The notes under the pieces: model-generated
Told to the model about the DNA's origin: nothing
What the model saw: only the letters and a program-made list of their open reading frames with translations
Database searches by the model: none
Made by a program: the position numbers and the translations under genes
Shown here: positions 5,603-41,038 of the stretch, one piece after another
Numbering within the stretch: the first letter of the stretch is position 1
How the letters are laid out: the number at the start of each line of letters is the position of its first letter
Origin: a plasmid
Sequence record: NZ_CP041325.1
Reading direction: 5' to 3' (one strand)
Length of the DNA: 64,000 bases

Positions 5603-5741
5603 TGAAAAGCTGCAGGTCAATAAACTCATATCTTTGACCAGCCGAAGCTCTCAATGCTAAGCGGTTGTCCCAAAGAGGAAACCTTTTCTTCAGTAAGTTG
5701 AAAATGCAGGATTCCGAAGAAGAAGAAGGAGGTATTATATA

Positions 5742-6828
5742 TGTTTGAAGCACGGAAGAAAAAAGCTGGTGCAGGTATTAAAGAAAAAATGAGATAGGGG
5801 CTATTGTTCTCGTACCGGGACCGAACCTGTATTATTTTACAGGGTTAAAACTCAAACAAAGTGAACGGTTGACGTTGGCAGTTATAACGCAAGAAGCTGA
5901 AACATTTTTTGTTTCACCTCAAGTAGAACTGAGCAAGGTCGAGGAAACAGTAAACGACGATATTTTTTGGTATACCGACGAAGAAGGACCAAGTGGTGCC
6001 TTGTCCCAGTTAAAAAAAAGCAGTGGGAACGCTTGGTATTATCGGGGTCGAATATGATCAAATGAGAGTGATGGAGTTGAAGGCCGTAGAAGCTTTTGAA
6101 GCAGCGGTTGTGGATGGAAATGGGCTGATTAATAACTTAAGGATCTGTAAAGATGAACAGGAAATTGAGCAATTGCAACAGGCTGTCAACATCTTGGAAT
6201 CAAGTTTTGAAGCAGTGCTTCCATATATCAAACCCGGAGTAACGGAAGTTGAAATTGCGGCTCAATTGGAGTTTGAGATGAGAAAGAGAGGTTCTGAAGG
6301 AACACCATTTGGAACAATTGTTGCTTCTGGTGACAGAGGGCCAGTCCTCATGGACGTGCTAGCGAAAAGAAAATTCGTTCGGGAGAACTCGTTGTTATGG
6401 ATTTTGGTGCCATTGTTAATGGATATGTAGGAGATATTTGCAGGACTGTCGCCATAGGAACCGTTTCAACAGAGCTAAAAGAAATCTATGAAATAGTACA
6501 ACTGGCGCAACAGACAGCTCTCGATAGCGTCAAACCCGGCGTGACAGCTCATGAAGTTGACCAAGCTGCGCGCGAAGTCATTGAGAGCCATGGTTATGGA
6601 GAATATTTCACTCATCGTACGGGGCATGGACTGGGTTTGAATTCTCACGAAATGCCTTATCTCATGAAGAACAATGAAATGGTGCTTCTACCGGGAATGG
6701 CTTTTTCAGTAGAACCGGGTATTTATCTCCCGGACAAAGTGGGAGTGCGAATCGAGGATAATCTTATTATTACAGAGGATGGCTTTATCAACCTGATGTC
6801 GTTGCCAAAAGAGCTTCTGACTGTATAG
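5742..6828 (+). CDS. M24-family Xaa-Pro aminopeptidase/dipeptidase (PepP/PepQ-like), fragmented by at least three frameshifts
   Basis: N-terminus MFEARKKK... at 5742 is broken at an A6 run. Pieces 5869..6057, 6023..6430 and 6397..6828 carry pita-bread fold motifs (...GYVGDICRTVAIG..., ...HRTGHGLGLNSHEMPYL..., ...GMAFSVEPGIY...). Confidence 0.65.
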
Positions 6829-6842
6829 AGAGGGGTGCTGGT

Positions 6843-8069: not shown

Positions 8070-8224
8070 ACGATGAGAATAAGCTGCCAGAACCTGAATG
8101 CTACAGGGTACTGGTAAGCTTATTTTTTTGGACAAGTATAAGTTGTTGATCTTACTCTTTAAAAACGCCTTTGCTTATTAAGCAGCATACAGGAGCCAAG
8201 GTATAAGCTTGCCAACGAATAGTA

Positions 8225-8253
8225 TTGACAGTTTCGAATTGTTAAAATATTAT
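8225..8253 (+). promoter_or_regulatory. sigma-A-type promoter for the hyuAB operon (-35 TTGACA 8225-8230, 17-bp spacer, -10 TATTAT 8248-8253)
   Basis: Consensus -35 with correct spacing to a near-consensus -10, 58 bp upstream of the hyuA start. Confidence 0.5.
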
Positions 8254-8265
8254 AAACCTAATTAA

Positions 8266-8280
8266 GAACCAGTGGTTCTA
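8266..8280. promoter_or_regulatory. perfect 15-bp palindrome AGAACCAGTGGTTCT (GAACC-N-GGTTC) just downstream of the -10, candidate repressor operator
   Basis: Perfect inverted repeat read from the sequence. A second half-site TAGAACCAC follows at 8283-8291. It overlaps the predicted transcription start of the hyuAB operon. The spacing is N5, so it is not a LexA box. Confidence 0.45.
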
Positions 8281-8310
8281 TTATAGAACCACAAGAAAGG
8301 GTGCAACTTC

Positions 8311-10359: not shown

Positions 10360-12077
10360 ACAGTAATCCGTTTGCGGTAGAGGTAATTAAAGACTCGCTT
10401 TTATCCATAGGGGAAGAAATGTTTATCGCGTTGGCAAGAACCTCTATGAGTCCAATGTTTTACGAGGTATTGGATTATGCGTGCGGGTTAACAGATGCAA
10501 AAGGAAACTTGATTAGCCAAGGGAATGGGGTTACAAGTTTTATTGGCATGTTGAGCCCCATGGTTCAGCACGTATTAAACAAATACGACAACGGAAATAA
10601 ACTGGCAGAAGGCGATATTATTATCATCAATGATCCTTATGTAGGGGGAGGATCGCATTTATCCGACGTCGGTCTCGTGATGCCTATCTTTTATGAAGGT
10701 GAACTTATCGCTTTTTCAGCGAACAAAGGACATTGGACAGAAATAGGCGGGAAAGATCCAGGCTCTTTTACTAACAGTTCGACAGAGATTTATCAAGAAG
10801 GCTTGCAACTGCCGGGGATAAAACTTTTTGATGCCGGTAAAGTCAATGAAGGCATGGTGGAATTAATTGCGATAAATGTTCGGTTGCCTCAATTGTCTCT
10901 CGGTGATATGTGGGCGCAAGTAGCCGCACTTCGAACAGGCGACAAAAGGCTAAAAGAACTGTGTTCAAAGTATGGGGAAAACACGGTTGTCTCCACAATG
11001 GATAATCTCATCGAACAAGCGGAAAGATATTCATTAAGGGAATTGAAAAAACTGCCGCAAGGAACTTTTGAAGCACAGGATTTCATCGAAGGAGATCCAT
11101 CAAAAGGGGGGCCATATCCGATAAAAGTAAAAGTTACAATCACGGAAGATGAGTTTATTTGTGATTTTAGAGGCTCCCATGAACAAGTCATGAATCCAGT
11201 GAATTGTTCTTATTATGGATTATTGTCCAGTGTACGAGTAATGTTTTTGGCAATTATCCGGCCAAACTTCAATGTGAATGAAGGACTGTTTAAGCCTTTA
11301 AAAATCATCACGGATAAAAACTCAATCGTTTCAGCGACAAGGCCTTCACCGGTATCCATGAATTTTGAAGCAAGAATTGGCGGCGCAGAGCTGATTTGGA
11401 AAGCATTAGCTCCATTGCTTCCTGATCGTTTGACCGCTGGTCATCTATTGTCAGTTTGTTCGTTTCTACTGTCTGGAAAACATTCCGAAACGGAAGAACC
11501 ATTCCTCATTGTTGAACCAACTTTAGGGGGCTGGGGAGCTGGTGAAAATCAAGATGGACAACGAGGACAATTTTGTATGGGAAATGGCGAAACTTATAAT
11601 ATGCCAATCGAAATCGCTGAAGCCCGATATGGTGTAAGAGTGGAAAATTACCGGCTTCGATGCGACGGAGCTGGAGCGGGACAGTATATTGGCGGCTCAG
11701 GTGTCATCCGAGCCTATAAAACGTTAAGTGAAGGTCAAGAAATGACAGCTAGTTTTGGAAGACATCAGTTCCAACCTTGGGGAATGAATGAAGGGGAAAA
11801 CGGATCCTCCAGCTATATAAGAATCATAAAAGAAAATGGGGAGGTCCTTGGACCGTTTGGTGTCTCTTCCCGGTTGAAATTAGACGAAGGCGATACAGTT
11901 GAACTCGTTACGGCAACAGGCGGAGGATATGGAAATCCGGCGGAACGGGACGAATTACTCGTATTGCAAGATGTGAAAAATGGTTACATTACAGCTGAAC
12001 AAGCCAAGGAAAAGTACGGAGTTATTATAAGTGAAGACCTTGATGGCATAGCGGGTTATACGGAGTTGCGCCAGTAA
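10356..12077 (+). CDS. hyuB: hydantoinase B / oxoprolinase subunit B family protein
   Basis: Intact 573-aa ORF MNSNPFAVEVIKDSLLSIGEEMFIALARTSMSPMFYEVLDYACGL..., typical of the HyuB N-terminus. Confidence 0.8.
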   Translation: MNSNPFAVEVIKDSLLSIGEEMFIALARTSMSPMFYEVLDYACGLTDAKGNLISQGNGVTSFIGMLSPMVQHVLNKYDNGNKLAEGDIIIINDPYVGGGSHLSDVGLVMPIFYEGELIAFSANKGHWTEIGGKDPGSFTNSSTEIYQEGLQLPGIKLFDAGKVNEGMVELIAINVRLPQLSLGDMWAQVAALRTGDKRLKELCSKYGENTVVSTMDNLIEQAERYSLRELKKLPQGTFEAQDFIEGDPSKGGPYPIKVKVTITEDEFICDFRGSHEQVMNPVNCSYYGLLSSVRVMFLAIIRPNFNVNEGLFKPLKIITDKNSIVSATRPSPVSMNFEARIGGAELIWKALAPLLPDRLTAGHLLSVCSFLLSGKHSETEEPFLIVEPTLGGWGAGENQDGQRGQFCMGNGETYNMPIEIAEARYGVRVENYRLRCDGAGAGQYIGGSGVIRAYKTLSEGQEMTASFGRHQFQPWGMNEGENGSSSYIRIIKENGEVLGPFGVSSRLKLDEGDTVELVTATGGGYGNPAERDELLVLQDVKNGYITAEQAKEKYGVIISEDLDGIAGYTELRQ

Positions 12078-12100: not shown

Positions 12101-12866
12101 ATGACTTTGAAAACCTTAGAAAATGCATTGGATATGCTATCTTACTTCACCACGGATAATCCGGAATGGGGATTAAGGGATTTAGCACGTGAAATGGAAA
12201 TTAATCATACCGTATTGCATCGGATACTAAAAACCTACGAGAAAAAAGGATACATCATTCAAAAATAAAAAAACGAAAAACTATGAGTTGGGCTTGAAGT
12301 TTTTGGAGTTTACGAGCGTAATCAAACACAAAATGAAATTATCCGAATTCATTCAGCCAGTCATGAAAGAACTAGCAAGTGCGATTAATGAAACCGTCTT
12401 TCTGACGTTGCAGGATGGAGATTATGGCGTAACGGTTGAGATTGCTGAATATGAACAACAGCTTAAATTCAATGTCACAATTGGGAGCCGAACACCGCTG
12501 TATGTAGGTGCTTCCTGCAAGACGATTATGGCTTATCTGCCAGAAGAAGAACAGCTTGAAATCATAAACAAAGGCATAAAAGTTTTTACGGATAAAACGA
12601 TGACGGATAAAGAAAAATTGTTAGCGGATTTAAAGGATATTAAAGAAAAGGGCTGGAGTTATACAAGAGGCGAGTACTCGGAAGCTGTTTTTGGCATGGG
12701 AGTCCCGCTATTTAACACATCTGGAAGAATCATCGGATCCGTAACCGCAGCAGGTCCCATTTATCGAATGTCTGAAGAAAAGGCTACAGAAACCTTGGCA
12801 ATTCTAAAGGAAAAAACGAGCATTATCCAGCAATACTTCAATAAGTTCGGTAACTTATACAATTAA
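12101..12866 (+). CDS. IclR-family transcriptional regulator (frameshift in an A-run near 12265-12280)
   Basis: N-terminus MTLKTLENALDMLSYFTTDNPEWGLRDLAREMEINHTVLHRILKTYEKKGYIIQK is an IclR HTH. The effector domain continues in ORF 12288..12866 (...TAAGPIYRMSEEKA...). Confidence 0.65.
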
Positions 12867-15785: not shown

Positions 15786-15799
15786 AGAACAAGTGTTCT
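15786..15799. promoter_or_regulatory. LexA/Cheo SOS box AGAACAAGTGTTCT (GAAC-N4-GTTC)
   Basis: Exact match to the Bacillus-type LexA operator core GAAC-N4-GTTC. It lies 21 bp upstream of the polymerase start and overlaps the promoter -10/+1 region. Confidence 0.6.
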
Positions 15800-15819
15800 T
15801 TTCGGAAGGGGTGAAGGAT

Positions 15820-17076
15820 ATGGAGAGCCGGGAAGGGGGGGAACGCACGATTGCTTGCCTCGACATGCGCAGTTTTTATGCGAGTTGTGCGGCGGTCGAG
15901 GCCGGGATGGATCCGCTGGAAGCGTATATCGCCGTCGTCGGCAACCAGGAGCGCAAGGGCAGCGTTGTGCTTGCGGCCTCCCCGCGGATGAAGCAGGAGT
16001 TCGGGGTCCGTACCGGCACCCGGCTGTTTGAAATCCCGGGCGACCCGCGGATCCGGCTCCTCGAGCCGAAGATGGGCTTCTTCCTGAAGGTGTCGATGGC
16101 CATCACGGACCTATTGGCGGAGTTTGTGCCGAAGGACTGCATCCACGTCTACAGCGTCGACGAGAGCTTCATCGACTTCACCCGTGTGGAGAGCTTCTGG
16201 GGCGGGGCAGAGGCGCTCATTCGCCACATCCAGGACGCGCTTGTCCGCCAATTCGGGCTGCCGTCTGCGGTCGGGGTGGGGCCGAACATGCTGCTGGCGA
16301 AGCTCGCACTCGACCTAGAGGCGAAGAAGAGCGGCTATGCCGAGTGGACGTATACCGACGTGCCGAAGAAGCTGTGGCCGGTCGCGCCCTTGAGCAAGAT
16401 GTGGGGCATCGGGTCCCGCACTGAACAGACCTTGAATGGCATGGGCATCTTCTCGGTCGGCGACTTAGCCTGCACGGATGTCGCAAAATTGGAAGGTCGC
16501 TTCGGCATCATGGGACACCAGCTCTATCAACATGCCAATGGCATCGACCTGTCGGAGCTCGGCGCGCCGCTCATCGAAGGGCAGGTCAGCTACGGCAAGG
16601 GGCAGATCCTCTACCGGGACTATACCGAAGTGGAAGACATCCTGACGATCATCCTGGAGATGTGCGAGGACGTCGCGATGCGCGCGCGGCAGGCCGGACG
16701 GGCGGGGCGCACGGTCCAGCTGGGGGTCGGCTACAGCAAGACAGCGTTCGGCGGCGGCTTCTCCCGCTCGCGTTCAATCGAGGAGGCGACGAACGAGACG
16801 CTGGCGCTCTACCGGGTCTGCCAGGAACTGTTCCGGGAACATTACCTCGGCAAACCGGTCCGCCAGATTTCGCTGTCCCTCAGCAACCTGGAGGAAGAGT
16901 CATCGATGCAGCTGAGCCTGTTCGAGGCCCAGAAATGGGAGAACCGCAAGCTCGGGGCGGCGATGGACCAGATCCGGAACCGGTACGGCTATTCGGCGAT
17001 CTACCGGGCGGTGTCCGGGACCGAAGCTGGAACGGCCATTGCCCGGACACGCTTGATTGGCGGGCATCAGAAATAA
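15820..17076 (+). CDS. Y-family DNA polymerase (DinB/UvrX/YqjW-like translesion polymerase)
   Basis: ORF from ATG 15820 (MESREGGERTIACLDMRSFYASCAAVE...) with RBS AAGGGGTGAAGG. It carries the Y-family motifs (DMRSFYAS, SVDESFIDFT, little-finger region), a GC-rich codon bias and a LexA box upstream. Confidence 0.8.
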   Translation: MESREGGERTIACLDMRSFYASCAAVEAGMDPLEAYIAVVGNQERKGSVVLAASPRMKQEFGVRTGTRLFEIPGDPRIRLLEPKMGFFLKVSMAITDLLAEFVPKDCIHVYSVDESFIDFTRVESFWGGAEALIRHIQDALVRQFGLPSAVGVGPNMLLAKLALDLEAKKSGYAEWTYTDVPKKLWPVAPLSKMWGIGSRTEQTLNGMGIFSVGDLACTDVAKLEGRFGIMGHQLYQHANGIDLSELGAPLIEGQVSYGKGQILYRDYTEVEDILTIILEMCEDVAMRARQAGRAGRTVQLGVGYSKTAFGGGFSRSRSIEEATNETLALYRVCQELFREHYLGKPVRQISLSLSNLEEESSMQLSLFEAQKWENRKLGAAMDQIRNRYGYSAIYRAVSGTEAGTAIARTRLIGGHQK

Positions 17077-17700: not shown

Positions 17701-18180
17701 AATGATATATAATGGTGCTCTTTCGACGATATTCTTATGTCTCCGTAAGAGATTACCTTCTGAAGGTTCTGAAGGTAATGATAAACTGAAATACCGCACC
17801 TGCAAGGTAACAAGGCAAAGAATTCCCGGCTATTTGTGGTCCAAGCTGCTCGAAGTCCGGGAAAAGCAGGCCATCCATCGGCTCTTGAAAAAGGATGCCC
17901 ACTTACAAGAACTTCAATTGTTCATCAGCGAGTTCTAGCAGCTCATGCGACTACAGCGAGAATGCCTGCATTGAATACGAAGAAAAAAAGCGGAATCAAG
18001 GAACTGAAGCAATTTGGACGCTACTTGCAATCAGATTGGCAAGCTGTTGAAAAATTCCCTGATTCATCGCTGGAGCAATGGTTTGGTAGAAGGTCATGTA
18101 AATCGCATTAAAGTGATCAAATGGTAAAGGTATGGCCGGGCTAACTTTAATCTGCTTCGCCTTAAAATTTTATACCGTTC
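17700..18180 (+). mobile_element. degraded ISL3-family transposase C-terminal remnant
   Basis: Translations across the frames give ...LQSDWQAVEKFPDSSLEQWFG... and ...VEGHVNRIKVIKW.RYGRANFNLLRLKIL, matching the conserved C-terminus of ISL3 transposases (...WSNGxVEGxxNRLKxIKRxxYGRAxFxLLRxRIL). The N-terminal two thirds are absent. Confidence 0.55.
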
Positions 18181-18337
18181 CAATTAATACTTTCCTAAAA
18201 AACAAGCTAACCATTCACCAGCTGCCGACAATCATCTTCACCAAATTGCGGAAGAACCAATAATAAACCGGTGTTAACAAATATTATTTTCAATTTTAAA
18301 AAATAAGTTTAATACATCGAGTGCTATATATTTTTAG

Positions 18338-18375
18338 GAACCTAAACAACCGTGTTTAAGTTCCTTTTTTGCTGT
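18338..18375 (+). terminator. hairpin (AGGAACCTAAAC/GTTTAAGTTCCT) followed by a T-run, putative terminator
   Basis: 12-bp near-perfect inverted repeat with a 6-nt loop, then TTTTTTGCTG. Confidence 0.35.
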
Positions 18376-18603
18376 TATTTAGCATTTGGTTATAGAAATT
18401 AGAAATAATAATTACCTTCTTTGATCTATCGAATGGTGCAAATTCACTTTAAATAATTTTCTTAATTTTTTCTCAAAACCTCAAAAATAAATCTCTTTTC
18501 GATGTGAATACTTGTATAATTTAGGTAATAATAAATATTTTTAAAGACTCATAAATTAGATGAATTAATTTAATTAAAATACTATTAAATATATAGGGGG
18601 TTA

Positions 18604-20208
18604 ATGATGGAGAGCATAAGAATAAGAAATTTAAGAAGTTTAAAAGACACAGGGGAGGTTGAACTCAAACCGTTAACTTTATTAGTGGGGAAAAATAGCT
18701 CAGGAAAAAGCACCTTTTTAAGAACCTTCCCATTATTCAAGCAAACTATAGAAACTAAAACTAATGAACCGATTCTTTGGTATAGCAGTAGATACGTTGA
18801 TTTTGGAAGTTTTCATGAAAGTCTTAATAAGATAACAGCTAAAGAAGAGGAGGAAAAGAAAAATATTAGTTTTGATTTCAAATTTAGTATCCCAAGTTCA
18901 GTTGTACAAATGGGAACTGTTGATATATTAAGCTACTATTCTTTAAGACCAAGTAGAATGAGTAGAATTTATAATTATAATTACAGCAATAGTAACCGTA
19001 AAACACCATTTAAAATAAGCATTGAAACGAATCAAAAGTCATTATCTAAATTTACTATTTCTATAGAAGATCATTTACTTGAAATGACTTTAAAAGAAGA
19101 TGAAAAATTTAGTCAAGTAGGACTTAAAATAAACGGAGTACCTATTTCAGAAACTTCTAGTTTAGTAGCTCGATACGCTAAAGATTACTCGCAGTTATTA
19201 CCTTTAATCTTTAGTGACAAAAGTAATTCTTCTGAAAATAATTATTTTAGAGATGAGTTATTTAAAATTTTTCAAAGCTTGGCTTATACTTCTACGAGAA
19301 GAAATACGATTTCAGAGTTTATTGAGGACATAAAGTTTGGTGATAAATCTGAAATTATTAATAATATAAAAAGTCAAGATACTACAGCTAATGTTCTATT
19401 AGAAAATTTAAAAGCATTAGAGTCCGACAATGAGGTAATGCAACAAATTATAATAAATTACATAGGTATGAATATAAATCCTATAATAACAATGTGTAAT
19501 AATTATATAGAACAGTATTTCTCTTCAATTAATTACATCGCTCCTATTAGAGCGAGTGCCGAAAGGTATTACAGAATTCAAGGTCTTTCTGTAGATGATA
19601 TCGATCCACAGGGCGAGAATATACCAATGATTTTCAATAATATGAGTGATATTGAAAAAGAAAATTATAACCATTGGTTATTTGGTAATTTTGGATTTCA
19701 AATATCAGCAAGCCCTACGGAAGGACATTCATCAATAAGAATAAAATATAGTAATGGAGAAGAGGTTAACTTAGCAGATACAGGCTTCGGGTATTCTCAG
19801 ATTCTCCCAATTACTTTAGTTCTATGGCAGACTTCAAAACAAGAACGAAAAGACATATTTGCATATAGTGGATTATATAAAGCTGATTACAATTTTTTTA
19901 ATTTAGTGATTGAGCAGCCTGAACTACATTTGCATCCAGCTATTCAGGCTAAATTAATCGATGCATTTATAAAGATAATTATGCTATGTAAAGAAAAGAG
20001 TATTGATATTAAAATTATTATCGAAACACATAGTGAAACAATGATTAATAGAATTGGATATATAATAGCAAAAAATATAGAGGAATTTACCGAGGATTTA
20101 GTTAAGGTAATTATTTTTGAAAATGATGAGGTCTTTGATACTAAATTAAATGTAAGTACATATTCGGAAAACGGGTATCTAAAAAAATGGCCTTTAGGTT
20201 TTTTTTGA
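18604..20208 (+). CDS. AAA_15/AAA_21-type ABC ATPase with DUF3696-like C-terminus (OLD/PARIS AriA/AbiL-type ATPase component)
   Basis: Intact 534-aa ORF. The Walker A site is at LLVGKNSSGKSTFLRTF. There is a long low-complexity insertion. The C-terminus has the NLVIEQPELHLHPAIQAKLIDAF... (Walker B/D-loop) and ...IIIETHSETMINR (H-loop) motifs. Confidence 0.75.
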   Translation: MMESIRIRNLRSLKDTGEVELKPLTLLVGKNSSGKSTFLRTFPLFKQTIETKTNEPILWYSSRYVDFGSFHESLNKITAKEEEEKKNISFDFKFSIPSSVVQMGTVDILSYYSLRPSRMSRIYNYNYSNSNRKTPFKISIETNQKSLSKFTISIEDHLLEMTLKEDEKFSQVGLKINGVPISETSSLVARYAKDYSQLLPLIFSDKSNSSENNYFRDELFKIFQSLAYTSTRRNTISEFIEDIKFGDKSEIINNIKSQDTTANVLLENLKALESDNEVMQQIIINYIGMNINPIITMCNNYIEQYFSSINYIAPIRASAERYYRIQGLSVDDIDPQGENIPMIFNNMSDIEKENYNHWLFGNFGFQISASPTEGHSSIRIKYSNGEEVNLADTGFGYSQILPITLVLWQTSKQERKDIFAYSGLYKADYNFFNLVIEQPELHLHPAIQAKLIDAFIKIIMLCKEKSIDIKIIIETHSETMINRIGYIIAKNIEEFTEDLVKVIIFENDEVFDTKLNVSTYSENGYLKKWPLGFF

Positions 20209-20223
20209 GCCGGAGGGAATTTA

Positions 20224-21427
20224 ATGTTATTAAAGATTGATAGTTCATTAGTTGATTATTTAAAAGATAATTCCTCAAAGCCCAATTTAATAAATAACGA
20301 AGTTCAGGCTTTAAATAATCTCTCTATAGCACACAGGGACAAAAAACATATTTTATTTGGATCTTTAGATGTAGTAGAATTTTTAAAAGATTTTAAACCC
20401 TTAGATGATACTGCGCTAGGAATTTTTAGCAATTTATTTAAAAAGTTTACTTTCATGGGAATATATGAAGAAATGTTTGATAATCAAATATTAATTAAAA
20501 GTAGAGAACATAAGTTTTTAAAGAAGTTTGTTAAAGAGAAAGTAATATTTGAAATTCCTATAACTGATTTTTTTAGATATAGAGAGTATTAGTAGAACTG
20601 CACTAATTGGAGAAGACAGTACTGACTGTGAATTTTATGAAGGATTAGCAAAACAGTATATTACAGAAAATTATGGGATTTCTGCTATTAATTTAAACTT
20701 TCACCATGTGAATGGAGGGGGAGTAAATACTTGGAAATCCTTGCGTTATTACAGTGAAAATAAAAAAATCTCACTTACTATAACTGATAGTGATAAGCGC
20801 TACCCAACTGGTAACGTAGGAGAGACTTTAAGAAAATTGAGGACTGAATATAATAAACATAAAAATAATACGATAACAGATTTAGTGGAGTTAAAAGTAA
20901 GAGAAAAAGAAAATTTAATTCCTCCTTCAGTTTATTTGTATTGCTGCAACAGTTCTGATAAAAGTAGATTGGAAAACTTCATGTTATTAGAGGATTCTAA
21001 TAAGCATTCCGAAAAATTATTTTATTTAGATTATAAAGAAGGGTTAAACGTTAAGAGCTATAAACGAGATTCTCAATTGCAAGGATATATAGAAGAAATG
21101 GTGAAAGATTTTCCGCACTTAGCCACTTGTAGTTTGGAAGATATAGATTCCTTATCTGACGATTATCGTATTATTGAAGGTATAAGTATGAATGTTTCAG
21201 ATTATTTTAGTGTAGGAGTTTTTTACGAAGGTTTAGAAAAAGAATTAGAAGATAAATTAATGATAGAAAAAATACCAGCAGAAGTTATAGATGATTTGCG
21301 TAATAGTATAGACAAAAAAAATAAAATGTTTAGACATATGCCAGAAAGCTTTCAAGTTCATTTGGAGGAAATTTGCAAAAAGCTTATTGATTGGGGATGT
21401 GCTAATAGTTCTTTTATTGCGACCTAA
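20224..21427 (+). CDS. TOPRIM/DUF4435-like putative nuclease partner (AriB/OLD C-terminal-domain-like). Either one gene split by a +1 frameshift at a T-run near 20566-20574, or two genes.
   Basis: ORF 20224..20592 continues in frame 2 from 20564 (..LIFLDIESISRTALIGEDSTDCEFYEGL...ISLTITDSDKRYPTGNVGETL...) into ORF 20708..21427. The conserved Glu (GEDSTD) and DxD (TDSDK) match a TOPRIM-type catalytic signature. It starts 16 bp after the ATPase stop with RBS GGAGGGAA. Confidence 0.5.
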
Positions 21428-21785
21428 ATACTTTGAAAAAGCATTTAAAAATATTTATGAAAGTATTACTTAAATTGTAAATTGATTTGTCAAGTGTATA
21501 GTGATTACGTGAATTTTTTTCATAAAAGATGGTTTATAAGAGGCCGAAAAGAAGATTCCAATTTCTTCTCGGCTACTTCTAATTTAGTCTCAAAATTTAT
21601 ATCAAAAGCACTCTATTATAATATTGCTTAAGAATGATCCAGCTAAGAAAAGGAAGGACATCGATTCTTATAACGAATCTAATACAGTATCTATATTTAA
21701 GTGTTTATACAATAAAGTTATTTTTTGCTTAGTCTCGGCTGCGTACTTACTCGAACGAACCCTGGAATCGCAAGCTCGTCCAACT

Positions 21786-24700
21786 TTATCGTAAAAGTAT
21801 GGTGTGAGTTACTTTATCTATGATTTGCTGTGAAATTTCTCGATCGAAATCTGCTATCTCTGGTAATATAGCATTAATATTTGCTAAATCTATTTCTTCA
21901 AAGTTCGATATTGCTTCAGCAATTATAGTTGATTTCTTGAGTAAAAATAATCTCAATGAATTGGGGTCTTCATTTATTAAGTGGAAAATAAGAATATGCA
22001 GAGCTTGCCATTCTAATCGATCTTTTGAGTAAGAATCTCTATGCATAGGAATATCAAAATCATTTTCTATATAATACTTAACTAGCGAAGGAGAAAAAGC
22101 GAACTGATAAAGGTTTATTTTCTCAAATTTCTCTTTATTACTGTAAAGAAAATTATCAATTATTCGAACGTGCTTTTTATCAAGATACAAAAAGAGGAAC
22201 TCAAGTATTTCACTATGAAAGCTCGCCCAAACATTATGCTCATCAAATTTAGTTTTTATTCGGGTTAAATCTATAGCTTTAATAAGCTCAGAGTATTTAC
22301 CTGAATCAAACTTTCTCAGAATCTTATAGAAACTAGATAAGTTGTGCCAACTGCGAAAGGGAACTGTTACTAATTCTTCAGCCAATTGCTTGGGTTCAAT
22401 AAAACTAATGATTTTTTCACCAATGACTCTTTGATCTTTTTTAATATAATCTCTTTTTTCGCTTAAAGAGTTGAATCCCATTACTATTGCTAAAAATTTG
22501 AAATCTAGCATATGCCAAGCGTTAATTGAATGTTGTTTAAATGCATTGCGGAAATTGTCAGACATCACGTGAAATAATTTAATGCCATAAAGTCTGTCGT
22601 AGTTAAAAATGTTCCCAATGAAATCAACTAAGTCTTCGAAATCTAACTGGTTATTTTCCAATAAAAGTAGTTCTGTTTCAATCTGGTTTTTGTCTAAAAG
22701 CTTGAAAAATTCCTTTGCTCTTTCAATTGATAAAAGAAGACCTAACCTAGAAATAAAATAACTCCAGTGATATAAATCTTCTTTCTTTAAATTAGAAAAT
22801 CTATTAGCAATTTCAGTTATATTTAAGTTGTTACCAAAATCTTTTGCTTTAATTCTATCCGAATTATACATATCATTTATTATAGTGCCCAATGAATAAG
22901 CCGTTATACTATTTACATTTTCAATTTCTTTATGAATTGTTGAAGAAAAATGATATATATCAAAATACTCGGTTTTACTAAACTTTGTAAAAGTATTGGC
23001 GAAGTATAAAGCATGAGTAGTGAGAGTTTTTTTCTTCTGACGACAAGCTTTCTTCAATGATATGGTAAACTTCGTCTTTCGAAATAATATAAGGCATTCT
23101 AAAATGCAGTTCACTAGTGAAAATTGTATTCATAAACCATACTTTTCCTAAAAGCGGATTATTTAGAGATATCATTTCATTGTGTACTATTTGCTCATAT
23201 TTTTTTCTATTTTCTGTGTCATTATCGAATATGAACTTCAATTGTCTTTTAGCTGCTTCATAGTGAATCATTCTAAGGAAGAAACCATCAATTAACCTTT
23301 TCTTTCGTAGTGCTTTTAAATTTTTATTTAGCCATTCTTCATCTTCAGAAAAGTATTCTTTTACGTTCTGTATTAACCAATTTTCATTTACTGTATTATC
23401 TTTGGTTATTATCTGTTTTAGAGCCAGTAAAAAAATTAATCTTTGTGAGTTGTCTAGATCTTTTGATTTAAAGTAGTTATCTTTAGTAGTTTTCCACCCG
23501 CCTCTAATTACATAATTAAAGGTCCAAAGATTGTCCTCTTTCGAGGCGGCATCTATTCTTTGATCGAACGATTCTTGCAGAAAGTAATTTCCTAAGTCTC
23601 CATCTATTTTTGAAATAATATGTGAAACTGTTTTTTCATTTTTTCTGTAAAATTCACTAATGCAAGCGATATTCTCATTATTAGAAATTGAAACTGTAGC
23701 GGAATCAACTTCTATATCTTCAGTAACTGTCAAAATGATCTTTTGATAATTACTGCTTTTTTCTTGTAAGATTTGCAAAATCGAACTGGGTAGAATATGT
23801 CCATCATCAATGATATATATTGCTTTAGGATTGCTGGGTAAAGAAAAATTATCGATATCTGTAAAATCATTGGTTTTGAAACGTAAAACTTCATATCCAT
23901 GTTTTAAAAAATGAAAAGCGATTTGGTAACAAGAAATGGATTTACCAGATCCGGGTTTTCCTTGAAGAATAACAAAGTTATTCAACTCTAAAACTTTAAT
24001 AGCTTTTTTGAACTTGGGGCATTTCGGGACAAACGCTCACGTCTTGAGGGGTAAGTTTGTACCCTAAAACGGCTCTTCCAATACTATCATTTTGATTTTT
24101 AAAATTTAAGTACTCCCATTTATTATAATTATTCTCGTCTATCAAATTTTCAACTAATTCCTCAAAAAATTCCGACGCCGATAAATTAATCACTCTTTCA
24201 TCAGTTGAAAATGGGGAAACTCTATAGACTTTCCATTTATCTTCTAAAGGCGAAATCAATTCTTCTACAATTTTTGCATCGCTTTCTGAATAGCCAACGA
24301 TAACTAGAGTTCTAGGTCTTTCCATTGCTAGTAGATTAATATGTTTTTGTTCTTCGTCACTTATATTTCCTGGAGAGTTTGGAAGTACCCACTCAGAATT
24401 TAAATTTAAGACATCTCCGTGTGGTTTGATCAAATTTATTTTACTGTCGTTTATTCGGGTACCATATAATTCAGACCATGACATTTCTAATAAGCTATCC
24501 CAATTAAAAGAGACAATTAGCTCAAAAAATTTTCATGAACTAATTTAGCTATATTATTATGTATACGAGGGGCAACGGTTATTTTACTGTTAACCTTGCT
24601 AAACTTGCTTTTAAATAAACTTACCGCATCTTCATTCTGTTCAATATATGAAAACGCCCTTTTGATTTTTTACAAAATCTTCTCCTATTCTACTCTTTGT

Positions 24701-24886
24701 ACTTCCAATGCCTTTAAACTTCTGATCGATACTAGGAAAAGAACTTACTACCTCCCAAACAATAGGAGCAAGCTGGTTACCTAGTGGCATTCCAGGTTCA
24801 AAGGAAACTCCCGCCCCAATAACTACGACAGCATTATTAACTCTTATTTCATTAATTATTGAGGTTAAATTATTAACAGACTTCAT
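21786..24886 (-). CDS. SIR2-domain / STAND P-loop NTPase / C-terminal helical-repeat protein (Avs type-5-like antiviral STAND), about 1030 aa, interrupted by about four homopolymer frameshifts
   Basis: N-terminal SIR2-like Rossmann region (VVVIGAGVSFEPGMP ... LIKPHGDV ... IVGYSESD) spans 24886-23996 with two shifts at T-runs. At the A6 run 24003-24008 the SIR2 frame (..CPEMPQVQKSY*) and the NTPase frame (..KAIKVLELNNFVILQGKPGSGKS, Walker A; AIYIIDDGH, Walker B) are both open. This argues for one fused ORF. The C-terminal 442-aa helical domain (23114..21786) overlaps the NTPase ORF by 136 nt in another frame. Confidence 0.6.
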
Positions 24887-24984
24887 CTCACTTGCTCCTT
24901 TTTTTAGTGATACTTTAATTATTCCATATAGGGAAAAATAATAAAAACGTTATAAATTAAACTGTTTTATAGGAGTTTCTTCTA

Positions 24985-25603
24985 TTATAAAGGAGTTGCT
25001 GTCTCTGCTTCGATTTCTCTCACTAATTTATAAAAACTAGTTTTTTTAACTCCAGTTTCTTGCATGGCTTCAACTGCTGTTAATTCTCCAGATTTCCATT
25101 TTCTATAAACCTCTTTAAATTCTTCTGAAACAAGAACAGGAGTCCTGCCAAACTGAATGCCGTTTTTCAACGCTAAGTCGATTCCTTCGCGTTGCCGTTT
25201 TCGTATGCGTTCCCGTTCTTCTTCTGCCATCCAGGAAAGAATCTGCAAAACCAAATCTGCAATGAATGTTCCCATACTATCTTTATACTGCGTCGTATCG
25301 AGTAACGGCATATCCAGCACCACGATATCCGCTTCGATTTTTTTTCGTCAGGTCATTCCATTCCTGGAGGATCTCTTCTTTGTTCCGGCCAAACCGATCC
25401 AGCGAGTGGATATATAAAATGTCGCCTTTCCGGATAATCCGTTTGAGCAGCTGATAGTTCGCTCGCTCGAAATTCTTACCACTTTGCTTGTCCAAATAAA
25501 TATCCCGTTCAGTGATGCCCATTTTTCTCATTGCTTCCAATTGACGGCCTTCGTTTTGATCTTTGCTGCTGACACGTATGTAGCCAAATTTGCGATGTTC
25601 CAT
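24985..25603 (-). CDS. serine recombinase (resolvase/invertase family), one frameshift at a T-run near 25325
   Basis: N-terminus MEHRKFGYIRVSSKDQNEGRQLEAMRKMGI...IYIHSLDRFGRN has the catalytic Ser and the resolvase motif. The C-terminal piece (...GRTPVLVSEEFKEVYRKWKSGELTAVEAMQETGVKKTSFYKLVRE) is the HTH domain. Confidence 0.75.
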
Positions 25604-25639
25604 AATTCACCTCGAAAACGATTGTTTCCTCTCATTATA

Positions 25640-25775
25640 CCTGAAAAGCGTTCGTAAAAGTGTCTGCAATTTCGCGAACGTTCGTAAAGTCATTTGACAC
25701 GTTTACGAACGCTGTTTTAGCCGTTTAGCCCTTTTCAAAGCGTTCGTAAAAGTGTACTTTTACGAACGCTTTAAA
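25640..25775. repeat. res-like array of CGTTCGTAAA-containing inverted repeats immediately upstream of the resolvase gene
   Basis: Four elements are read from the sequence. GCGTTCGTAAAAGTG lies at 25648-25662. The palindrome CGAACGTTCG lies at 25676-25685. An inverted pair CGTTCGTAAA(G)/(C)TTTACGAACG is separated by about 12 bp at 25679-25711. A perfect 16-bp inverted repeat AAAGCGTTCGTAAAAG/CTTTTACGAACGCTTT with a 4-bp centre lies at 25737-25772. This arrangement is typical of a three-subsite resolvase res. Confidence 0.5.
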
Positions 25776-26116
25776 AAGTATAGTGGCATGTATAAAAAGG
25801 GAATAAAGGAGAATTCGGCGAATTACCTGTTTAAGGAAATAAACCAATTGTTAAAGAAGACAACTAGGGGCGAGGGGAGTGATTCGTTTTATTCGATATG
25901 AAGAGGATCAAATGTATTTAGAATTCACAGAAATAGAACCGGCTGTAAGTTTAACGGAATTTGTAAAATATCTATAAGATGAAGAAATCACAAGACGAAA
26001 GGATGCCTTGGCGATGGCTTTCAAAAAGCAAAAAACAGAAAGAAATCCAGGCAGTCTTCCGAACTTTGCTCGCCTGAAATCATGAATTGAAAAATTTGCC
26101 GAAAGGATGTGATGAT

Positions 26117-26515
26117 ATGACGATTAACGTATTTATCAGCTATGACTACACCAGCGATAAAGAGTATGCATCCTTATTAAAAGCTTGGGCTGAAAACGAT
26201 GCCGAACATTTTAAGAACATTAATTTTATTGATGGTTCTAGCGATTTTTCAAGAGAATCTACTAAAGTGAACGCCTTCAAAAATTCAATTTCAAGAAGAA
26301 TGAATGCGTGTGATAAAATACTTGTTTTAGTTGGAAAAGAAACCTACAAAAGTGATTGGTGTAAATGGGAGATCAAGAAAGCTGAAGAACTTGAGCTTGA
26401 TTTTGCAGCAGTTAACATTGAACATGCAAATGCATCTCCCATCAGCTTGTACGGAAAAGGAGTAAAAAGGGCGAGAAGTTTTACTGAAGCAGCCATTGAA
26501 AGCGTCTTAACGTAA
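26117..26515 (+). CDS. TIR-domain protein (ThsB-like / DUF1863 MTH538-type TIR)
   Basis: 132-aa ORF from ATG 26117 (RBS AAAGGATG): MTINVFISYDYTSDKEYA...CDKILVLVGKETYKSDWCKWEIKKAEE. The FISY.., ..ILVLV... and S.WC..EI signature marks a bacterial TIR-like domain. The ORF track starts at TTG 26087. Confidence 0.65.
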   Translation: MTINVFISYDYTSDKEYASLLKAWAENDAEHFKNINFIDGSSDFSRESTKVNAFKNSISRRMNACDKILVLVGKETYKSDWCKWEIKKAEELELDFAAVNIEHANASPISLYGKGVKRARSFTEAAIESVLT

Positions 26516-26682
26516 GATCAAATCAACATGTGGATGTTTATAAGCTTTTACCTTTTCGAGGGTTTAACTTAAGCTAGGCAGTTTCTTTTGTAGTTAGAAT
26601 TTTAATAGGTTTACATATCTTCACTTATAGGAAGCAGCAACCTAAATTAATCTTCAATTGGCGTTGCTACAGTTACATGTAA

Positions 26683-26718
26683 AACAGACAGCCGACTTGC
26701 TCAGGCTGTCTGTTTTTG
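26683..26718 (+). terminator. rho-independent terminator (CAGACAGCC...GGCTGTCTG followed by TTTTTG)
   Basis: AAAACAGACAGCCGACTTGCTCAGGCTGTCTGTTTTTG gives a 9-bp stem and a T-run downstream of the TIR gene. Confidence 0.6.
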
Positions 26719-27003
26719 TAACTCTAGAGATAGACTTTGTGGCTCAGTTTTAATGATTACTGGACAAACTGCTTACCGATTCGCACCTATAATAATGAAG
26801 TGTATTGAAAATAATAGTTAATTATTTAAAAATTTAATTATTTAATAGAAAAAGTTTTATTTCTTGCTATACTAAAAGCTAAAAGAAGAGATACATGGGG
26901 CAGAGAAACGGGGAGTGAGAATGCTTTTGAAATCAAAACACTTTAAAGAAATTATTAATCTACAAGTATTTTTAATACATCCTTTTCAAGGGAGTGAAGA
27001 AGT

Positions 27004-27138
27004 ATGGAGAACTTTTTAATTCTATTTTCTCCTTACCTCATTGGCTTAGCGCTATGCTTAGGAATCAGCTCGCTTATCGCAAGTATTTTAGAAAATAAGA
27101 AAAACACTAATTCAAGTAGAAAGAGGATATCATTATAA
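27004..27138 (+). CDS. possible 44-aa small hydrophobic peptide
   Basis: ATG with GGGAGTG RBS 8 nt upstream encodes MENFLILFSPYLIGLALCLGISSLIASILENKKNTNSSRKRISL, a single TM helix. A -10-like TATACT lies about 120 bp upstream. There is no homology support. Confidence 0.25.
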   Translation: MENFLILFSPYLIGLALCLGISSLIASILENKKNTNSSRKRISL

Positions 27139-27252
27139 ACTACCTCTTTGATAAGAAGAACCGCGGAGAGAACGGGCAAACAATCATTAACGGAAATATT
27201 GGTTGAGTTGTATATTTGTTTGTCCGACTATCGCCTTGTGCTTTTGATCCGT

Positions 27253-27660
27253 TTATTTACTCACTAACTCTTCAATGTATTCATAAGCAATTGCTTCATC
27301 TTCTGACTTGTAGAAAAACCCCTTGTACGTCATTGTATCCCTTGAATTGATGGTGAGGTCCTGGATTACTTCGCCTTTCTCGTCGAAAAAGACGGCGCGA
27401 TAACTAAATGCGATATCCCCGATTGAGGGTGCCCCTTTTTGAAAAATGGTTTTGTTCAGATTGCTGACCAGATGATTAATCTCGCTTTCTTCGGTAATCT
27501 CCAGTAATTTTATTGAGTTCTCATCTGAAACAGCTATTTTGGAAACCTTTGCTGGCTCGATGCTTACAACTTTATGAGGGGCATAGGACCACGCAAAAGC
27601 CAACAGCAATAAGAATGGAACCGCTAGTACAACCCATTTGATCCACTTTCTTTTATTCAT
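27253..27660 (-). CDS. hypothetical secreted/membrane-anchored protein
   Basis: 135-aa ORF with a signal-anchor (MNKRKWIKWVVLAVPFLLLLAFAWSYAP) and GGAGG RBS. No family recognised. Confidence 0.4.
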   Translation of the reverse strand: MNKRKWIKWVVLAVPFLLLLAFAWSYAPHKVVSIEPAKVSKIAVSDENSIKLLEITEESEINHLVSNLNKTIFQKGAPSIGDIAFSYRAVFFDEKGEVIQDLTINSRDTMTYKGFFYKSEDEAIAYEYIEELVSK

Positions 27661-27792
27661 AAGAAAAACCTCCTTGACGGATAGAGAGCGCTATAAATGT
27701 CAGCTGCCGCTTCTTAATCACTTCCTAGCATTCGAATGGAAAGTAAGGAAAAAAGTAAACATTGCCGGTTGTTCAAAGGAATCGTGCAGAAT

Positions 27793-40989: not shown

Positions 40990-41038
40990 ACGCTTCTTTC
41001 AAAATCATCATTCAATTGATTGGCAGCAGACACAACTG

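What the first reader, a model, noticed from the sequence alone, without database searches (positions are those of the whole stretch)
18200..26720. AT-rich 8.5-kb defence island with three distinct immunity-type modules plus a resolvase
This is the lowest-GC stretch in the window and is gene-sparse at its edges. It contains three modules. The first is a split OLD/PARIS/AbiL-like ATPase plus TOPRIM pair. The second is a SIR2-STAND NTPase of about 1030 aa. The third is an orphan TIR-domain gene. A serine resolvase with a res-like site lies between them, and an IS remnant sits at one end. Both the composition and the content fit a mobile anti-phage defence island. The exact combination of a SIR2 effector on a STAND NTPase, a separately encoded TIR protein and an ATPase/TOPRIM pair does not match any single described system as far as I can tell from sequence alone.
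Basis: partly seen in the sequence, partly recalled or inferred. Interest (0 to 1): 0.7.

Follow-up and report, generated by a model that had tools for sequence, protein, structure and literature searches.

The report
Mosaic plasmid anti-phage defence island
An AT-rich 8-kb stretch of a Planococcus glaciei plasmid holds three unrelated, separately mobile anti-phage gene cassettes joined at a plasmid resolvase site; each resembles a known kind of system, one has lost its partner genes, and the many broken reading frames are most likely sequencing errors.

Summary

It is a mosaic of independent cassettes, not one composite system:
1. **ATPase plus nuclease, 18488-21467.** An NsnB-like ABC ATPase and a separately encoded 400-aa protein with an OLD-type TOPRIM fold. 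The pair recurs as a two-gene cassette in other Bacillales and never has a Menshen NsnA gene. Its logic is PARIS-like.
2. **SIR2-STAND, 21525-25772.** A single-gene protein of 1071 aa travelling with a serine resolvase and its res site. Its closest solved relative is Avs5.
3. **Small TIR gene, 26117-26515.** A ThsB-family gene. Its relatives sit beside SLATT or TPR effector genes (Thoeris types VII/VIII), and none is present in this window.

DNA similarity to five other records stops exactly at the res palindrome, so this site is a cargo-exchange junction.

Seven frameshifts break three of the genes. All are one-base length changes in homopolymers. About twenty similar sites occur across the rest of the window, so assembly error is the likely cause.

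Novelty is modest: distant variants of known kinds. No defence function was tested.

The parts
17804..18280 (+). Remnant of the 3' part of an ISL3-family transposase gene. It marks the left edge of the island.
   Evidence: blastn gives 69% identity to the last ~400 nt of a transposase CDS, plus sequence beyond it, on a Planococcus sp. MB-3u-03 plasmid. Short hits fall under 'ISL3 family transposase' features. No intact ORF is present.
18488..21467 (+). Two-gene ATPase + TOPRIM cassette, taken as a DNA unit.
   Evidence: DNA similarity to L001 (76.5%), L080 (78.9%) and L007 (67%) begins about 110 bp upstream of the ATPase start and ends at or just after the partner's stop codon. GC is 28.1%.
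18604..20208 (+). NsnB-like (OLD-ABC, AAA_15/AAA_21) ATPase of 534 aa, intact.
   Evidence: Pfam AAA_15 3.6e-27 and AAA_21 2.2e-16. PADLOC NsnB 1.2e-45, PDC-M55A 1.1e-36, AriA 3.6e-28. It is 100% identical to an 'AAA family ATPase (plasmid) [Planococcus glaciei]'. The only sequence match among solved structures is an OLD nuclease, 6p74, at 2e-4. Read directly from the sequence: Walker A G29-S36 (GKNSSGKS), 'IEQPELHLHP', and a GFG signature.
20224..21427 (+). Partner nuclease of 400 aa: N-terminal alpha/beta domain, OLD-type TOPRIM, helical C-terminus. One frameshift lies in the T7 run 20568-20574.
21525..25772 (-). DNA unit res - resolvase - SIR2-STAND, shared with Planococcus sp. S3-L1.
   Evidence: 90.9% identity over 4255 nt to L002, with the same gene order and orientation.
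21668..24886 (-). Avs5-like SIR2-STAND (nSTAND3) protein, 1071 aa after correction. Five one-base frameshifts lie in runs at 24666-24671, 24524-24529, 24004-24009, 23027-23033 and 21793-21796.
   Evidence: 93% identical to the intact 1070-aa P0136. The corrected ORF has no in-frame stop, and dN/dS against L002 is 0.16. Pfam nSTAND3 5e-13. GAGxS, N128-W-D130, K-P-H156-G and G-x-GKS are invariant in 33 homologues. The model of P0136 has pLDDT 88.5. Foldseek top hits are EfAvs5 9jap (3e-13), the AVAST5 filament 9nc9, then SAMD9, DSR2 and ThsA. A PDB profile search gives 9jap at 1.4e-6.
24985..25603 (-). Serine resolvase of 205 aa, with one frameshift in the 8-base run 25338-25345.
   Evidence: Pfam Resolvase hits on both halves. 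tblastn with the intact L001 resolvase gives 87-95% identity in two frames joining at 25343. DNA is 82-89% identical to 'recombinase family protein' genes on 24 plasmids.
25644..25778 (.). res site: five copies of CGTTCGTAAA arranged as three subsites, including a near-perfect 23-nt-arm palindrome at 25731-25778. This is the recombination junction of the mosaic.
   Evidence: Repeat families D1-D3 and inverted repeats I1-I6. The five exact copies are found only here in the window. Similarity to L001, L002, L078 (S. aureus pSA8589) and L079 (P. versutus) stops at 25770-25772 in every record.
26117..26515 (+). Orphan ThsB-family TIR gene of 132 aa, counted from the ATG at 26117 that follows an AGGA. 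The conserved W-x-x-W-E motif is intact.
   Evidence: Pfam ThsB_TIR 6e-19. PADLOC ThsB 6e-15 and PDC-M50B 1.5e-12. A family profile matches solved TIR/ThsB structures 8fz9 (6e-13) and 6lhy. In 49 of 65 loci holding relatives, a SLATT and/or TPR-S gene lies within 3.5 kb. Six-frame HMM searches of the whole window find neither.

Best explanation
**What it is.** The window comes from a roughly 158-kb plasmid of Planococcus glaciei. The AT-rich stretch is a patchwork of three independent defence-type cassettes, assembled next to a promiscuous plasmid resolvase/res module. It is not a single system.

**Cassette 1: ATPase plus nuclease.**
- An NsnB-like ABC ATPase and a separately encoded nuclease with an OLD-type TOPRIM core.
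- By analogy with PARIS (AriA/AriB) and with Menshen NsnB/NsnC, I infer that the ATPase holds the nuclease inactive and acts as the sensor.
- A phage cue would then release or activate the nuclease, which cuts an essential nucleic acid, possibly tRNA, and aborts the infection.

**Cassette 2: SIR2-STAND.**
- A single-gene NLR-like protein built like Avs5.
- I infer that its C-terminal helical-repeat domain recognises a phage protein.
- The STAND module would then oligomerise and switch on the N-terminal SIR2 NADase, which depletes NAD+.
- This gene travels with the resolvase gene and its res site.

**Cassette 3: small TIR gene.**
- It belongs to a ThsB lineage that normally works with a SLATT membrane effector or a TPR effector, as in Thoeris types VII/VIII with cADPR signalling.
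- Neither effector is present in the window. On its own the TIR gene is probably inert unless an effector is encoded elsewhere in the genome.

**The frameshifts.** The seven frameshifts in three genes are most likely homopolymer-length errors of the assembly, so the genes are probably intact in the organism.

**Shown versus inferred.**
- Shown here: gene content, folds, conserved catalytic motifs, modular distribution, the res breakpoint, and the nature of the frameshifts.
- Inferred: the triggers, the enzymatic activities, and protection against phage.
For: **Source.** The ATPase is 100% identical to a P. glaciei plasmid protein on a 157,579-bp contig. The 239-aa fragment of the partner is on record there as FK545_20725.

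**Modularity.**
- The ATPase + ~400-aa partner pair occurs alone in Planococcus sp. 4-30, Peribacillus, B. velezensis and a metagenome contig. No DUF262 gene is listed among the called neighbours in any of these loci.
- The partner diverges in step with the ATPase: 62%/51% and 46%/32% identity.
- SIR2-STAND homologues stand alone in B. cereus and Peribacillus. In Planococcus sp. S3-L1 the homologue sits with only the resolvase.
- DNA similarity splits the island into 18488-21467 and 21525-25772.

**The res site as junction.**

**The orphan TIR.**. The SLATT and TPR effector configurations are described as Thoeris VII/VIII in bioRxiv 10.64898/2025.12.03.692087.

**Mechanistic analogies.** PARIS: PMC11464382. 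EfAvs5: PMC11897194. Menshen: PMC12065111.

**The frameshifts.**
- All seven are one-base changes in homopolymers. Six lie in runs of 6 or more, which cover 3% of positions (P about 5e-9).
- After correction there are no in-frame stops. dN/dS is 0.13-0.16, similar to the intact ATPase at 0.10.
- About 20 further homopolymer sites across unrelated genes behave the same way, including C6 and G6 runs.
Against: - No function was tested.
- The SIR2-STAND has no PADLOC or NCBIfam hit. Its SIR2 domain falls below Pfam's threshold (17 bits on a fragment). Identity to Avs5 is only 12-14%.
- I could not find an independent assembly of this plasmid, so real frameshifts cannot be excluded.
- Only 64 kb of the genome was visible. 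A SLATT or TPR effector could lie elsewhere.
Confidence: 0.72

Rival explanations
1. The island is genuinely decaying. The seven frameshifts are real mutations, and the partner nuclease, the SIR2-STAND and the resolvase are pseudogenes on a degenerating plasmid.
For: Three of five genes are broken. The deposited annotation carries a fragment as a separate protein. The TIR gene has already lost its operon partners. An IS remnant lies next door.
Against: Every lesion is a one-base homopolymer change. There are no nonsense substitutions or larger deletions. dN/dS is 0.13-0.16. The same kind of lesion hits transporters, a Mur ligase and P-type ATPases across the window, including C6 and G6 runs. 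That pattern fits a sequencing artefact better than selective decay.
Confidence: 0.12
2. The modules cooperate as one composite system. For example, the TIR protein makes a nucleotide signal that activates the SIR2-STAND, in a Thoeris-like arrangement with a STAND in place of SLOG. Alternatively the ATPase pair regulates the others.
For: The genes lie within 8 kb. Thoeris type I pairs a TIR with a SIR2 effector (established knowledge; ThsA appears among the Foldseek hits).
Against: None of the SIR2-STAND loci examined lists a TIR-domain gene among the called neighbours. Of 65 TIR loci, 49 have a SLATT and/or TPR-S gene within 3.5 kb, and no SIR2-STAND partner was noticed. The genes lie on opposite strands and are separated by a resolvase gene and a res site where similarity to all other records breaks. 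Pfam detects no SLOG or Macro signal-binding domain in the SIR2-STAND.
Confidence: 0.04
3. The ATPase/TOPRIM cassette is not an anti-phage system. It would instead be a plasmid-maintenance or DNA-repair module: an OLD/RecF-like nuclease, or an addiction module.
For: The cellular roles of most OLD-family nucleases are poorly defined. In the window and in L080 the cassette lies near a Y-family DNA polymerase gene. There is no experimental defence record for this exact family, and a literature search for PDC-M55 found nothing.
Against: The best HMM matches are defence ATPases: NsnB, PDC-M55A, AriA, GajA and Old. In other genomes the cassette sits in variable, mobile contexts: an integrase/DUF927 element in Peribacillus, and next to AbiEi and Mrr_N genes in L080. 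Its very low GC relative to its surroundings suggests horizontal acquisition.
Confidence: 0.1
4. The homopolymer frameshifts are phase-variation switches that turn costly defence genes on and off.
For: All the frameshifts lie in A/T runs of 4-8 bases inside potentially toxic defence genes. Slipped-strand phase variation is known for restriction-modification systems in other bacteria (established knowledge).
Against: The same lesions occur in about 20 unrelated genes, including metabolic and transport genes. Five independent switches in one gene would almost never be in frame together.
Confidence: 0.04

Closest known systems
PARIS (AriA ABC ATPase + AriB DUF4435 TOPRIM nuclease)
   Different: The partner is 400 aa against about 300 for AriB, and it has an extra N-terminal alpha/beta domain. 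It does not match Pfam DUF4435 or the PADLOC AriB models. The ATPase scores far better against NsnB than against AriA.
Menshen (NsnA-NsnB-NsnC)
   Same: The best HMM hit of the ATPase is NsnB, at 1.2e-45 over the whole profile. Read from the sequence, it shares NsnB peculiarities described in PMC12065111: GxG in place of SGG, and Arg in place of the Q-loop Gln. Some NsnC effectors carry an N-terminal domain followed by a TOPRIM nuclease, as this partner appears to.
   Different: There is no NsnA (ParB-DUF262) gene in the window or in five related loci. NsnA is what defines Menshen in that study. Whether the partner's N-terminal domain is an inactive PIN was not tested.
PADLOC candidate PDC-M55 (untested two-gene candidate)
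   Same: The ATPase hits PDC-M55A at 1.1e-36. The partner and its homologues give their only PADLOC hit of note to PDC-M55B, over the DxD to REKEN region.
   Different: The partner's match is marginal (E 0.002-0.04). No paper in the searched library mentions PDC-M55, so the name carries no functional knowledge.
Avs5 / AVAST type 5 (SIR2-STAND)
   Same: A single gene with an N-terminal SIR2, a central STAND NTPase and a C-terminal helical sensor. EfAvs5 (9jap) and the AVAST5 filament (9nc9) are the best Foldseek hits (3e-13 and 7e-10), and 9jap is the best PDB profile hit. The SIR2 motifs are conserved.
   Different: Identity is only 12-14%. The NTPase is of the nSTAND3 type. No PADLOC model matches it. 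The host is a Bacillota member, whereas Avs5 is described mainly from Gram-negative phyla (PMC11897194). It is about 200 aa longer than EfAvs5.
Thoeris types VII and VIII (TIR + SLATT effector ThsH; TIR + CMP-hydrolase/TPR effector ThsI)
   Same: The TIR is a ThsB_TIR family member. Its relatives lie directly beside SLATT/DUF4231 genes in 30 loci and TPR-S genes in 23 loci out of 65. These are the configurations described in bioRxiv 10.64898/2025.12.03.692087.
   Different: The window has no effector gene of either type in any frame. This is a lone TIR gene, not a Thoeris system.
Plasmid serine resolvase / res modules, such as the recombinase beside cfr on S. aureus pSA8589
   Same: 88% DNA identity over the gene and the res site. 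The N-terminal catalytic domain is present. The upstream res site has repeated binding motifs.
   Different: The cargo on the 3' side of the resolvase gene is a defence gene here, rather than resistance genes. No Tn3-type transposase is nearby.

Membership tests
PARIS | AriA-type ABC ATPase (AAA_15/AAA_21) | tested here: met
   PADLOC AriA 3.6e-28 over 1-373/373. Pfam AAA_15 at 96 bits against a cutoff of 32. The AriA model is generic, and NsnB scores higher.
PARIS | AriB: DUF4435-type TOPRIM nuclease encoded next to AriA | tested here: inconclusive
PARIS | Release of the nuclease on sensing a phage protein, followed by tRNA cleavage | not testable with these tools
   This needs biochemistry and phage assays.
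Menshen | NsnA (ParB-DUF262 + ParBDB) gene upstream of NsnB | tested here: not met
   No ORF of gene size lies upstream of 18604. No DUF262 is listed among the neighbours in L001, L007, L008-L010 or L080.
Menshen | NsnB-type ABC ATPase | tested here: met
   PADLOC NsnB 1.2e-45, covering profile positions 1-332 of 345.
Menshen | NsnC: N-terminal inactive PIN domain plus C-terminal effector | tested here: inconclusive
   A TOPRIM effector is supported. The N-terminal alpha/beta domain (residues 1-115) was not compared with PIN domains on its own.
OLD family nucleases (classes 1 and 2) / Gabija GajA | ATPase and TOPRIM fused in one polypeptide; for Gabija, also a GajB helicase gene | tested here: not met
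   The ATPase and TOPRIM are two separate genes, here and in all the homologous loci. No helicase gene is adjacent.
Avs5 (AVAST type 5) | Single polypeptide: SIR2 - STAND NTPase - C-terminal sensor | tested here: met
   Invariant GAGxS, NWD, KPHG and GKS motifs with Walker B DD. nSTAND3 at 5e-13. The region from about residue 560 to 1070 is all-helical. The top structural hits are Avs5.
Avs5 (AVAST type 5) | Sequence membership through a defence-database HMM | tested here: not met
   PADLOC at E up to 10 returns only a chance-level mad8 hit. NCBIfam returns nothing.
Avs5 (AVAST type 5) | Phage-triggered filamentation or oligomerisation and NAD+ hydrolysis | not testable with these tools
   This needs protein work. 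The mechanism is cited from PMC11897194.
Thoeris | ThsB-type TIR protein with the catalytic glutamate | tested here: met
   PF08937 at 68.7 bits against a cutoff of 21.2. E85 in the W-x-x-W-E motif is conserved in at least 90% of 30 homologues and is present in the window protein. A family profile hits the solved ThsB structures 6lhy and 9b7d.
Thoeris | Adjacent effector gene (ThsA SIR2-SLOG, Macro, SLATT ThsH, TPR ThsI and others) | tested here: not met
   Six-frame HMM searches of the whole window with SLATT and TPR-S profiles built from the relatives' neighbours give no hit at E up to 10. The flanks hold no gene-sized ORF.
Serine resolvase / res module | N-terminal serine-recombinase catalytic domain and an adjacent multi-subsite res | tested here: met
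   Pfam Resolvase at 60.6 and 26.8 bits on the two halves. Five copies of the motif lie in three subsites directly upstream.

The most novel reading that the evidence does not exclude
The lone TIR gene is not a dead remnant. It would feed a nucleotide signal of the cADPR type to an effector that is not its usual neighbour, either the adjacent SIR2-STAND or an effector elsewhere in the genome. That would make the island a hybrid Thoeris/Avs circuit assembled by resolvase-mediated shuffling.

A milder novel reading is that the NsnA-less NsnB-like ATPase + TOPRIM cassette is a distinct, still unnamed defence family spread through Bacillales. I would give that about 0.5 probability and an interest of about 0.45.
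Probability: 0.04. Interest if true: 0.75.

Novelty: new variant of a known kind. Interest (0 to 1): 0.35.

Why it matters
- **Cargo exchange at a resolvase site.** The locus gives a clean example of how defence cargo is shuffled on Gram-positive plasmids. Similarity to five unrelated records ends at the same res palindrome. The same resolvase module accompanies the cfr and erm resistance genes on clinical plasmids. This supports the idea that resolvase/res sites act as exchange points for both resistance and immunity genes.
- **Two candidates for experiment.**
  - A two-gene NsnB-like ATPase + TOPRIM cassette without NsnA, conserved from Planococcus to Bacillus velezensis. It would test whether the Menshen ATPase-effector pair can work without its ParB-like sensor, in the way PARIS does.
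  - A Gram-positive, nSTAND3-type counterpart of Avs5 with an unrelated sensor domain.
- **Practical warning.** This assembly carries many homopolymer errors. Automatic defence-system finders will miss or fragment these genes unless the sequence is corrected first.

Tried and rejected
- Exact look-ups of the window's ATPase in the contig index found nothing, so no independent copy of this plasmid could be compared.
- There was no similarity to the phage collection, no tRNA and no Rfam family. This rejects a prophage or a tRNA-integrated island.
- The promoter and terminator scans gave no more sites than shuffled sequence and were not used.
- The afdb50 structure library was unavailable.
- The first genome scan, with the single TIR protein, found no relative. 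A 30-sequence alignment was too diverse to derive search patterns. A 6-sequence alignment worked.
- A literature search for PDC-M55 returned nothing, and so did a search for TPR-S + SLATT + TIR together.
- The right flank, 25773-27700, has no informative match among plasmids.
- Membership of Menshen was rejected because NsnA is absent. Membership of OLD or Gabija was rejected because the ATPase and nuclease are separate genes and no helicase is present.
- A Tn3-type transposon was considered and rejected. There is no Tn3 transposase and only one res site in the window.

Full report
**1. Source and observation**

The 534-aa ATPase encoded at 18604-20208 is 100% identical to an 'AAA family ATPase (plasmid) [Planococcus glaciei]' on a 157,579-bp contig. 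The 239-aa fragment at 20708-21427 is on record in the same plasmid as FK545_20725. The window is therefore part of a large plasmid of a psychrotolerant member of the Bacillales.

The composition claim holds. The 1-kb bins from 18 to 24 kb have 27-30% GC, the lowest in the window. The island as a whole has 31.1% GC against 43.2% for the window. It lies 1.4 kb from a Y-family polymerase gene of 62.6% GC. Both edges lack gene-sized ORFs.

**2. Gene content**

- an AAA_15/AAA_21 ATPase, with PADLOC best hits NsnB (1.2e-45), PDC-M55A (1.1e-36) and AriA (3.6e-28);
- fragments of an nSTAND3 NTPase with a weak SIR2 signal;
- two halves of a serine resolvase;
- a ThsB-type TIR protein at 6e-19.

The left edge, 17804-18280, is a remnant of the 3' part of an ISL3-family transposase gene.

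Directly upstream of the resolvase gene there are five exact copies of CGTTCGTAAA within 120 bp. They are arranged as inverted pairs and include a 23-nt-arm palindrome at 25731-25778. The exact motif occurs nowhere else in the window. None of 100 shuffles reached the total of 11 matches at up to one mismatch. This is a credible res site.

**3. The frameshifts**

I compared the window with intact homologues:
- The partner of the ATPase is one 400-aa protein broken once.
- The resolvase is one 205-aa protein broken once.
- The SIR2-STAND is one 1071-aa protein broken five times.

Every break is a one-base length change in a homopolymer: T7, A8, A6, T6, A6, A7 and T4 on the coding strand. Six of the seven lie in runs of six or more, which occupy 3% of the positions in these genes. 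The chance probability is about 5e-9.

After correction no in-frame stop remains. dN/dS against the closest intact relatives is 0.16 for the SIR2-STAND and 0.13 for the partner, similar to 0.10 for the intact ATPase.

The same test applied to the whole window finds about twenty more homopolymer sites where adding or removing one base fuses two open frames. These include C6 and G6 runs. They fall at or near a permease, an IclR regulator, a Mur ligase, P-type ATPases, Nramp and a tyrosine recombinase, all of which Pfam shows as truncated pieces.

The simplest reading is an assembly with homopolymer-length errors. Real decay or phase variation cannot be excluded without accurate reads. No independent copy of the plasmid was on record.

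**4. Module 1: ATPase plus nuclease (18488-21467)**

*Conservation.* The ATPase is followed by a gene of about 400 aa in every related locus examined:
- Planococcus sp. 4-30;
- Peribacillus, inside an integrase/DUF927 element;
- Bacillus velezensis, on the chromosome;
- a metagenome contig that also shares the upstream Y-family polymerase gene.

The two proteins diverge in step. DNA similarity begins about 110 bp before the ATPase start and ends at the partner's stop codon. This is a self-contained two-gene cassette.

*Classification.* Read from its sequence, the ATPase shares NsnB's unusual GxG signature and arginine Q-loop described for Menshen. However, the defining NsnA (ParB-DUF262) gene is absent here and in all five related loci (one search gives the definition). 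The cassette is therefore not Menshen. It is not a fused OLD or Gabija enzyme either. By HMM it is not PARIS.

*Likely mechanism.* By architecture it most likely works like PARIS. In PARIS an ABC ATPase scaffold senses a phage protein and releases a TOPRIM nuclease that cuts tRNA (PMC11464382). This step is inference.

**5. Module 2: SIR2-STAND with resolvase (21525-25772)**

*Distribution.* The corrected protein is 93% identical to an intact 1070-aa protein of Planococcus sp. S3-L1. There the resolvase gene lies immediately upstream in the same orientation, and the 4.25-kb unit is 91% identical in DNA. More distant homologues in B. cereus and Peribacillus stand alone beside topoisomerase or partition genes. 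No TIR or OLD-type ATPase gene is listed among their neighbours.

*Motifs and fold.* Thirty-three homologues keep GAGxS, N-W-D, K-P-H-G, the P-loop GKS and a Walker B DD. The first three are the classical SIR2 NAD-binding and catalytic motifs (established knowledge). A full-length model of P0136 has pLDDT 88.5. Its best Foldseek matches are EfAvs5 (9jap, 3e-13) and the AVAST5 filament (9nc9), followed by SAMD9, DSR2 and ThsA. A sequence profile also finds 9jap first, at 1.4e-6.

*Classification.* PADLOC and NCBIfam have no model that recognises the protein. It is a distant, Gram-positive, nSTAND3-type analogue of Avs5.

*Likely mechanism.* I expect it to deplete NAD+ after sensor-driven oligomerisation, as shown for EfAvs5 (PMC11897194). 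This is inference.

**6. The resolvase and res site as a junction**

The resolvase-res segment is 82-89% identical to 'recombinase family protein' loci on 24 plasmids. These include Planococcus and Sporosarcina plasmids, and the cfr/erm(33) plasmid pSA8589 of S. aureus with its relatives in Proteus, Escherichia and Pasteurella.

In every record compared, similarity to the window ends at 25770-25772, inside the palindrome. Sequence to the right of the palindrome, including the TIR gene, is unrelated in all of them. The cargo on the other side of the resolvase gene also differs between records. This fits site-specific recombination at res as the event that joined these pieces. The event itself is inferred.

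**7. Module 3: the TIR gene (26117-26515)**

A full HMMER scan of 1.84 billion representative proteins found only 165 relatives, mostly single-domain proteins of 130-180 aa. A profile of thirty of them matches solved TIR and ThsB structures. The W-x-x-W-E motif with the catalytic glutamate is kept.

I retrieved 65 loci from representative genomes and examined the neighbours:
- 30 have a SLATT/DUF4231 two-transmembrane protein, usually ending within 10 bp of the TIR start.
- 23 have a protein of about 415-465 aa with a TPR-S domain.
- 49 have one or both.

In the closest relative, Thalassobacillus at 63% identity, the gene order is TPR-S, SLATT, TIR. A 2025 preprint names these configurations Thoeris types VII (SLATT effector ThsH) and VIII (CMP-hydrolase/TPR effector ThsI), and reports canonical cADPR as the signal.

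Profiles built from these neighbours find nothing in any frame of the whole window. The 340 bp between the res site and the TIR start holds only short ORFs. The TIR gene is therefore a true orphan of such an operon. How the effector gene was lost is unknown.

**8. One system or three?**

No locus holding a homologue of one module carried a second module; the resolvase is the only shared neighbour. The modules lie on different strands and have separate DNA-similarity blocks. They are separated by a recombination site. Three independent cassettes is the supported reading. A hybrid TIR-to-SIR2-STAND circuit remains possible but unlikely; I put it at about 4%.

**9. Verdict**

The combination is an accident of mosaic assembly rather than a new system. 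Each piece is a distant variant of a known kind, and one piece is incomplete.

The points worth following up are:
- the NsnA-less ATPase-TOPRIM cassette;
- the nSTAND3-type Avs5 analogue;
- the res site as a shared exchange point for defence and resistance cargo.

Interest is 0.35.

Noticed in passing
whole window, e.g. 2856, 6012, 12229-12265, 30630, 35831, 37950, 40258, 48130, 52565-52714, 55975: About twenty homopolymer sites outside the island where adding or removing one base fuses two open frames. They fall at or near a permease, an IclR regulator, a Mur ligase, P-type ATPases and Nramp. This looks like an unpolished assembly with homopolymer errors, so any gene call in this record needs care.
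   Followed up: partly
window 24965-25772: The resolvase + res module is about 88% identical in DNA to the recombinase next to cfr and erm(33) on S. aureus pSA8589, and to similar plasmids of Proteus, Providencia, Pasteurella, Salmonella and E. coli. The same module therefore moves between Gram-positive environmental plasmids and clinical resistance plasmids.
   Followed up: partly
window 15793-17076: A Y-family (IMS/DinB-UmuC type) DNA polymerase gene with 62.6% GC lies only 1.4 kb from the 28% GC cassette. The same polymerase gene lies upstream of the ATPase cassette in metagenome contig L080. There five small genes, including HTH, Mrr_N and AbiEi_4, fill the gap that the IS remnant occupies here.
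   Followed up: partly
L011 3167-5393; L019, L020 and other TIR loci: In the relatives' operons, the TPR-S proteins next to the small TIR also match a PADLOC 'Effector TIR' model in their N-terminal part. Several loci carry two or three TIR-type genes together, with an Ogg-like glycosylase and a TGT-like gene. These arrangements were not analysed further.
   Followed up: no
window 41000-47300: A second low-GC stretch (34-40%) with only short ORFs. A tyrosine recombinase is split into two pieces at 42453-43071. The rest has no Pfam hits.
   Followed up: partly
window 27253-27660 (-): A 135-aa protein with an N-terminal hydrophobic helix and no family hit, convergent with the TIR gene after a 740-bp gap without genes. 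It is 68% identical in DNA to a hypothetical gene on a Pontibacillus plasmid.
   Followed up: no
window 4655-12077: A metabolic cluster (DUF1177, class-V aminotransferase, hydantoinase/oxoprolinase A and B) that appears intact. Not all long genes in the window are broken.
   Followed up: no
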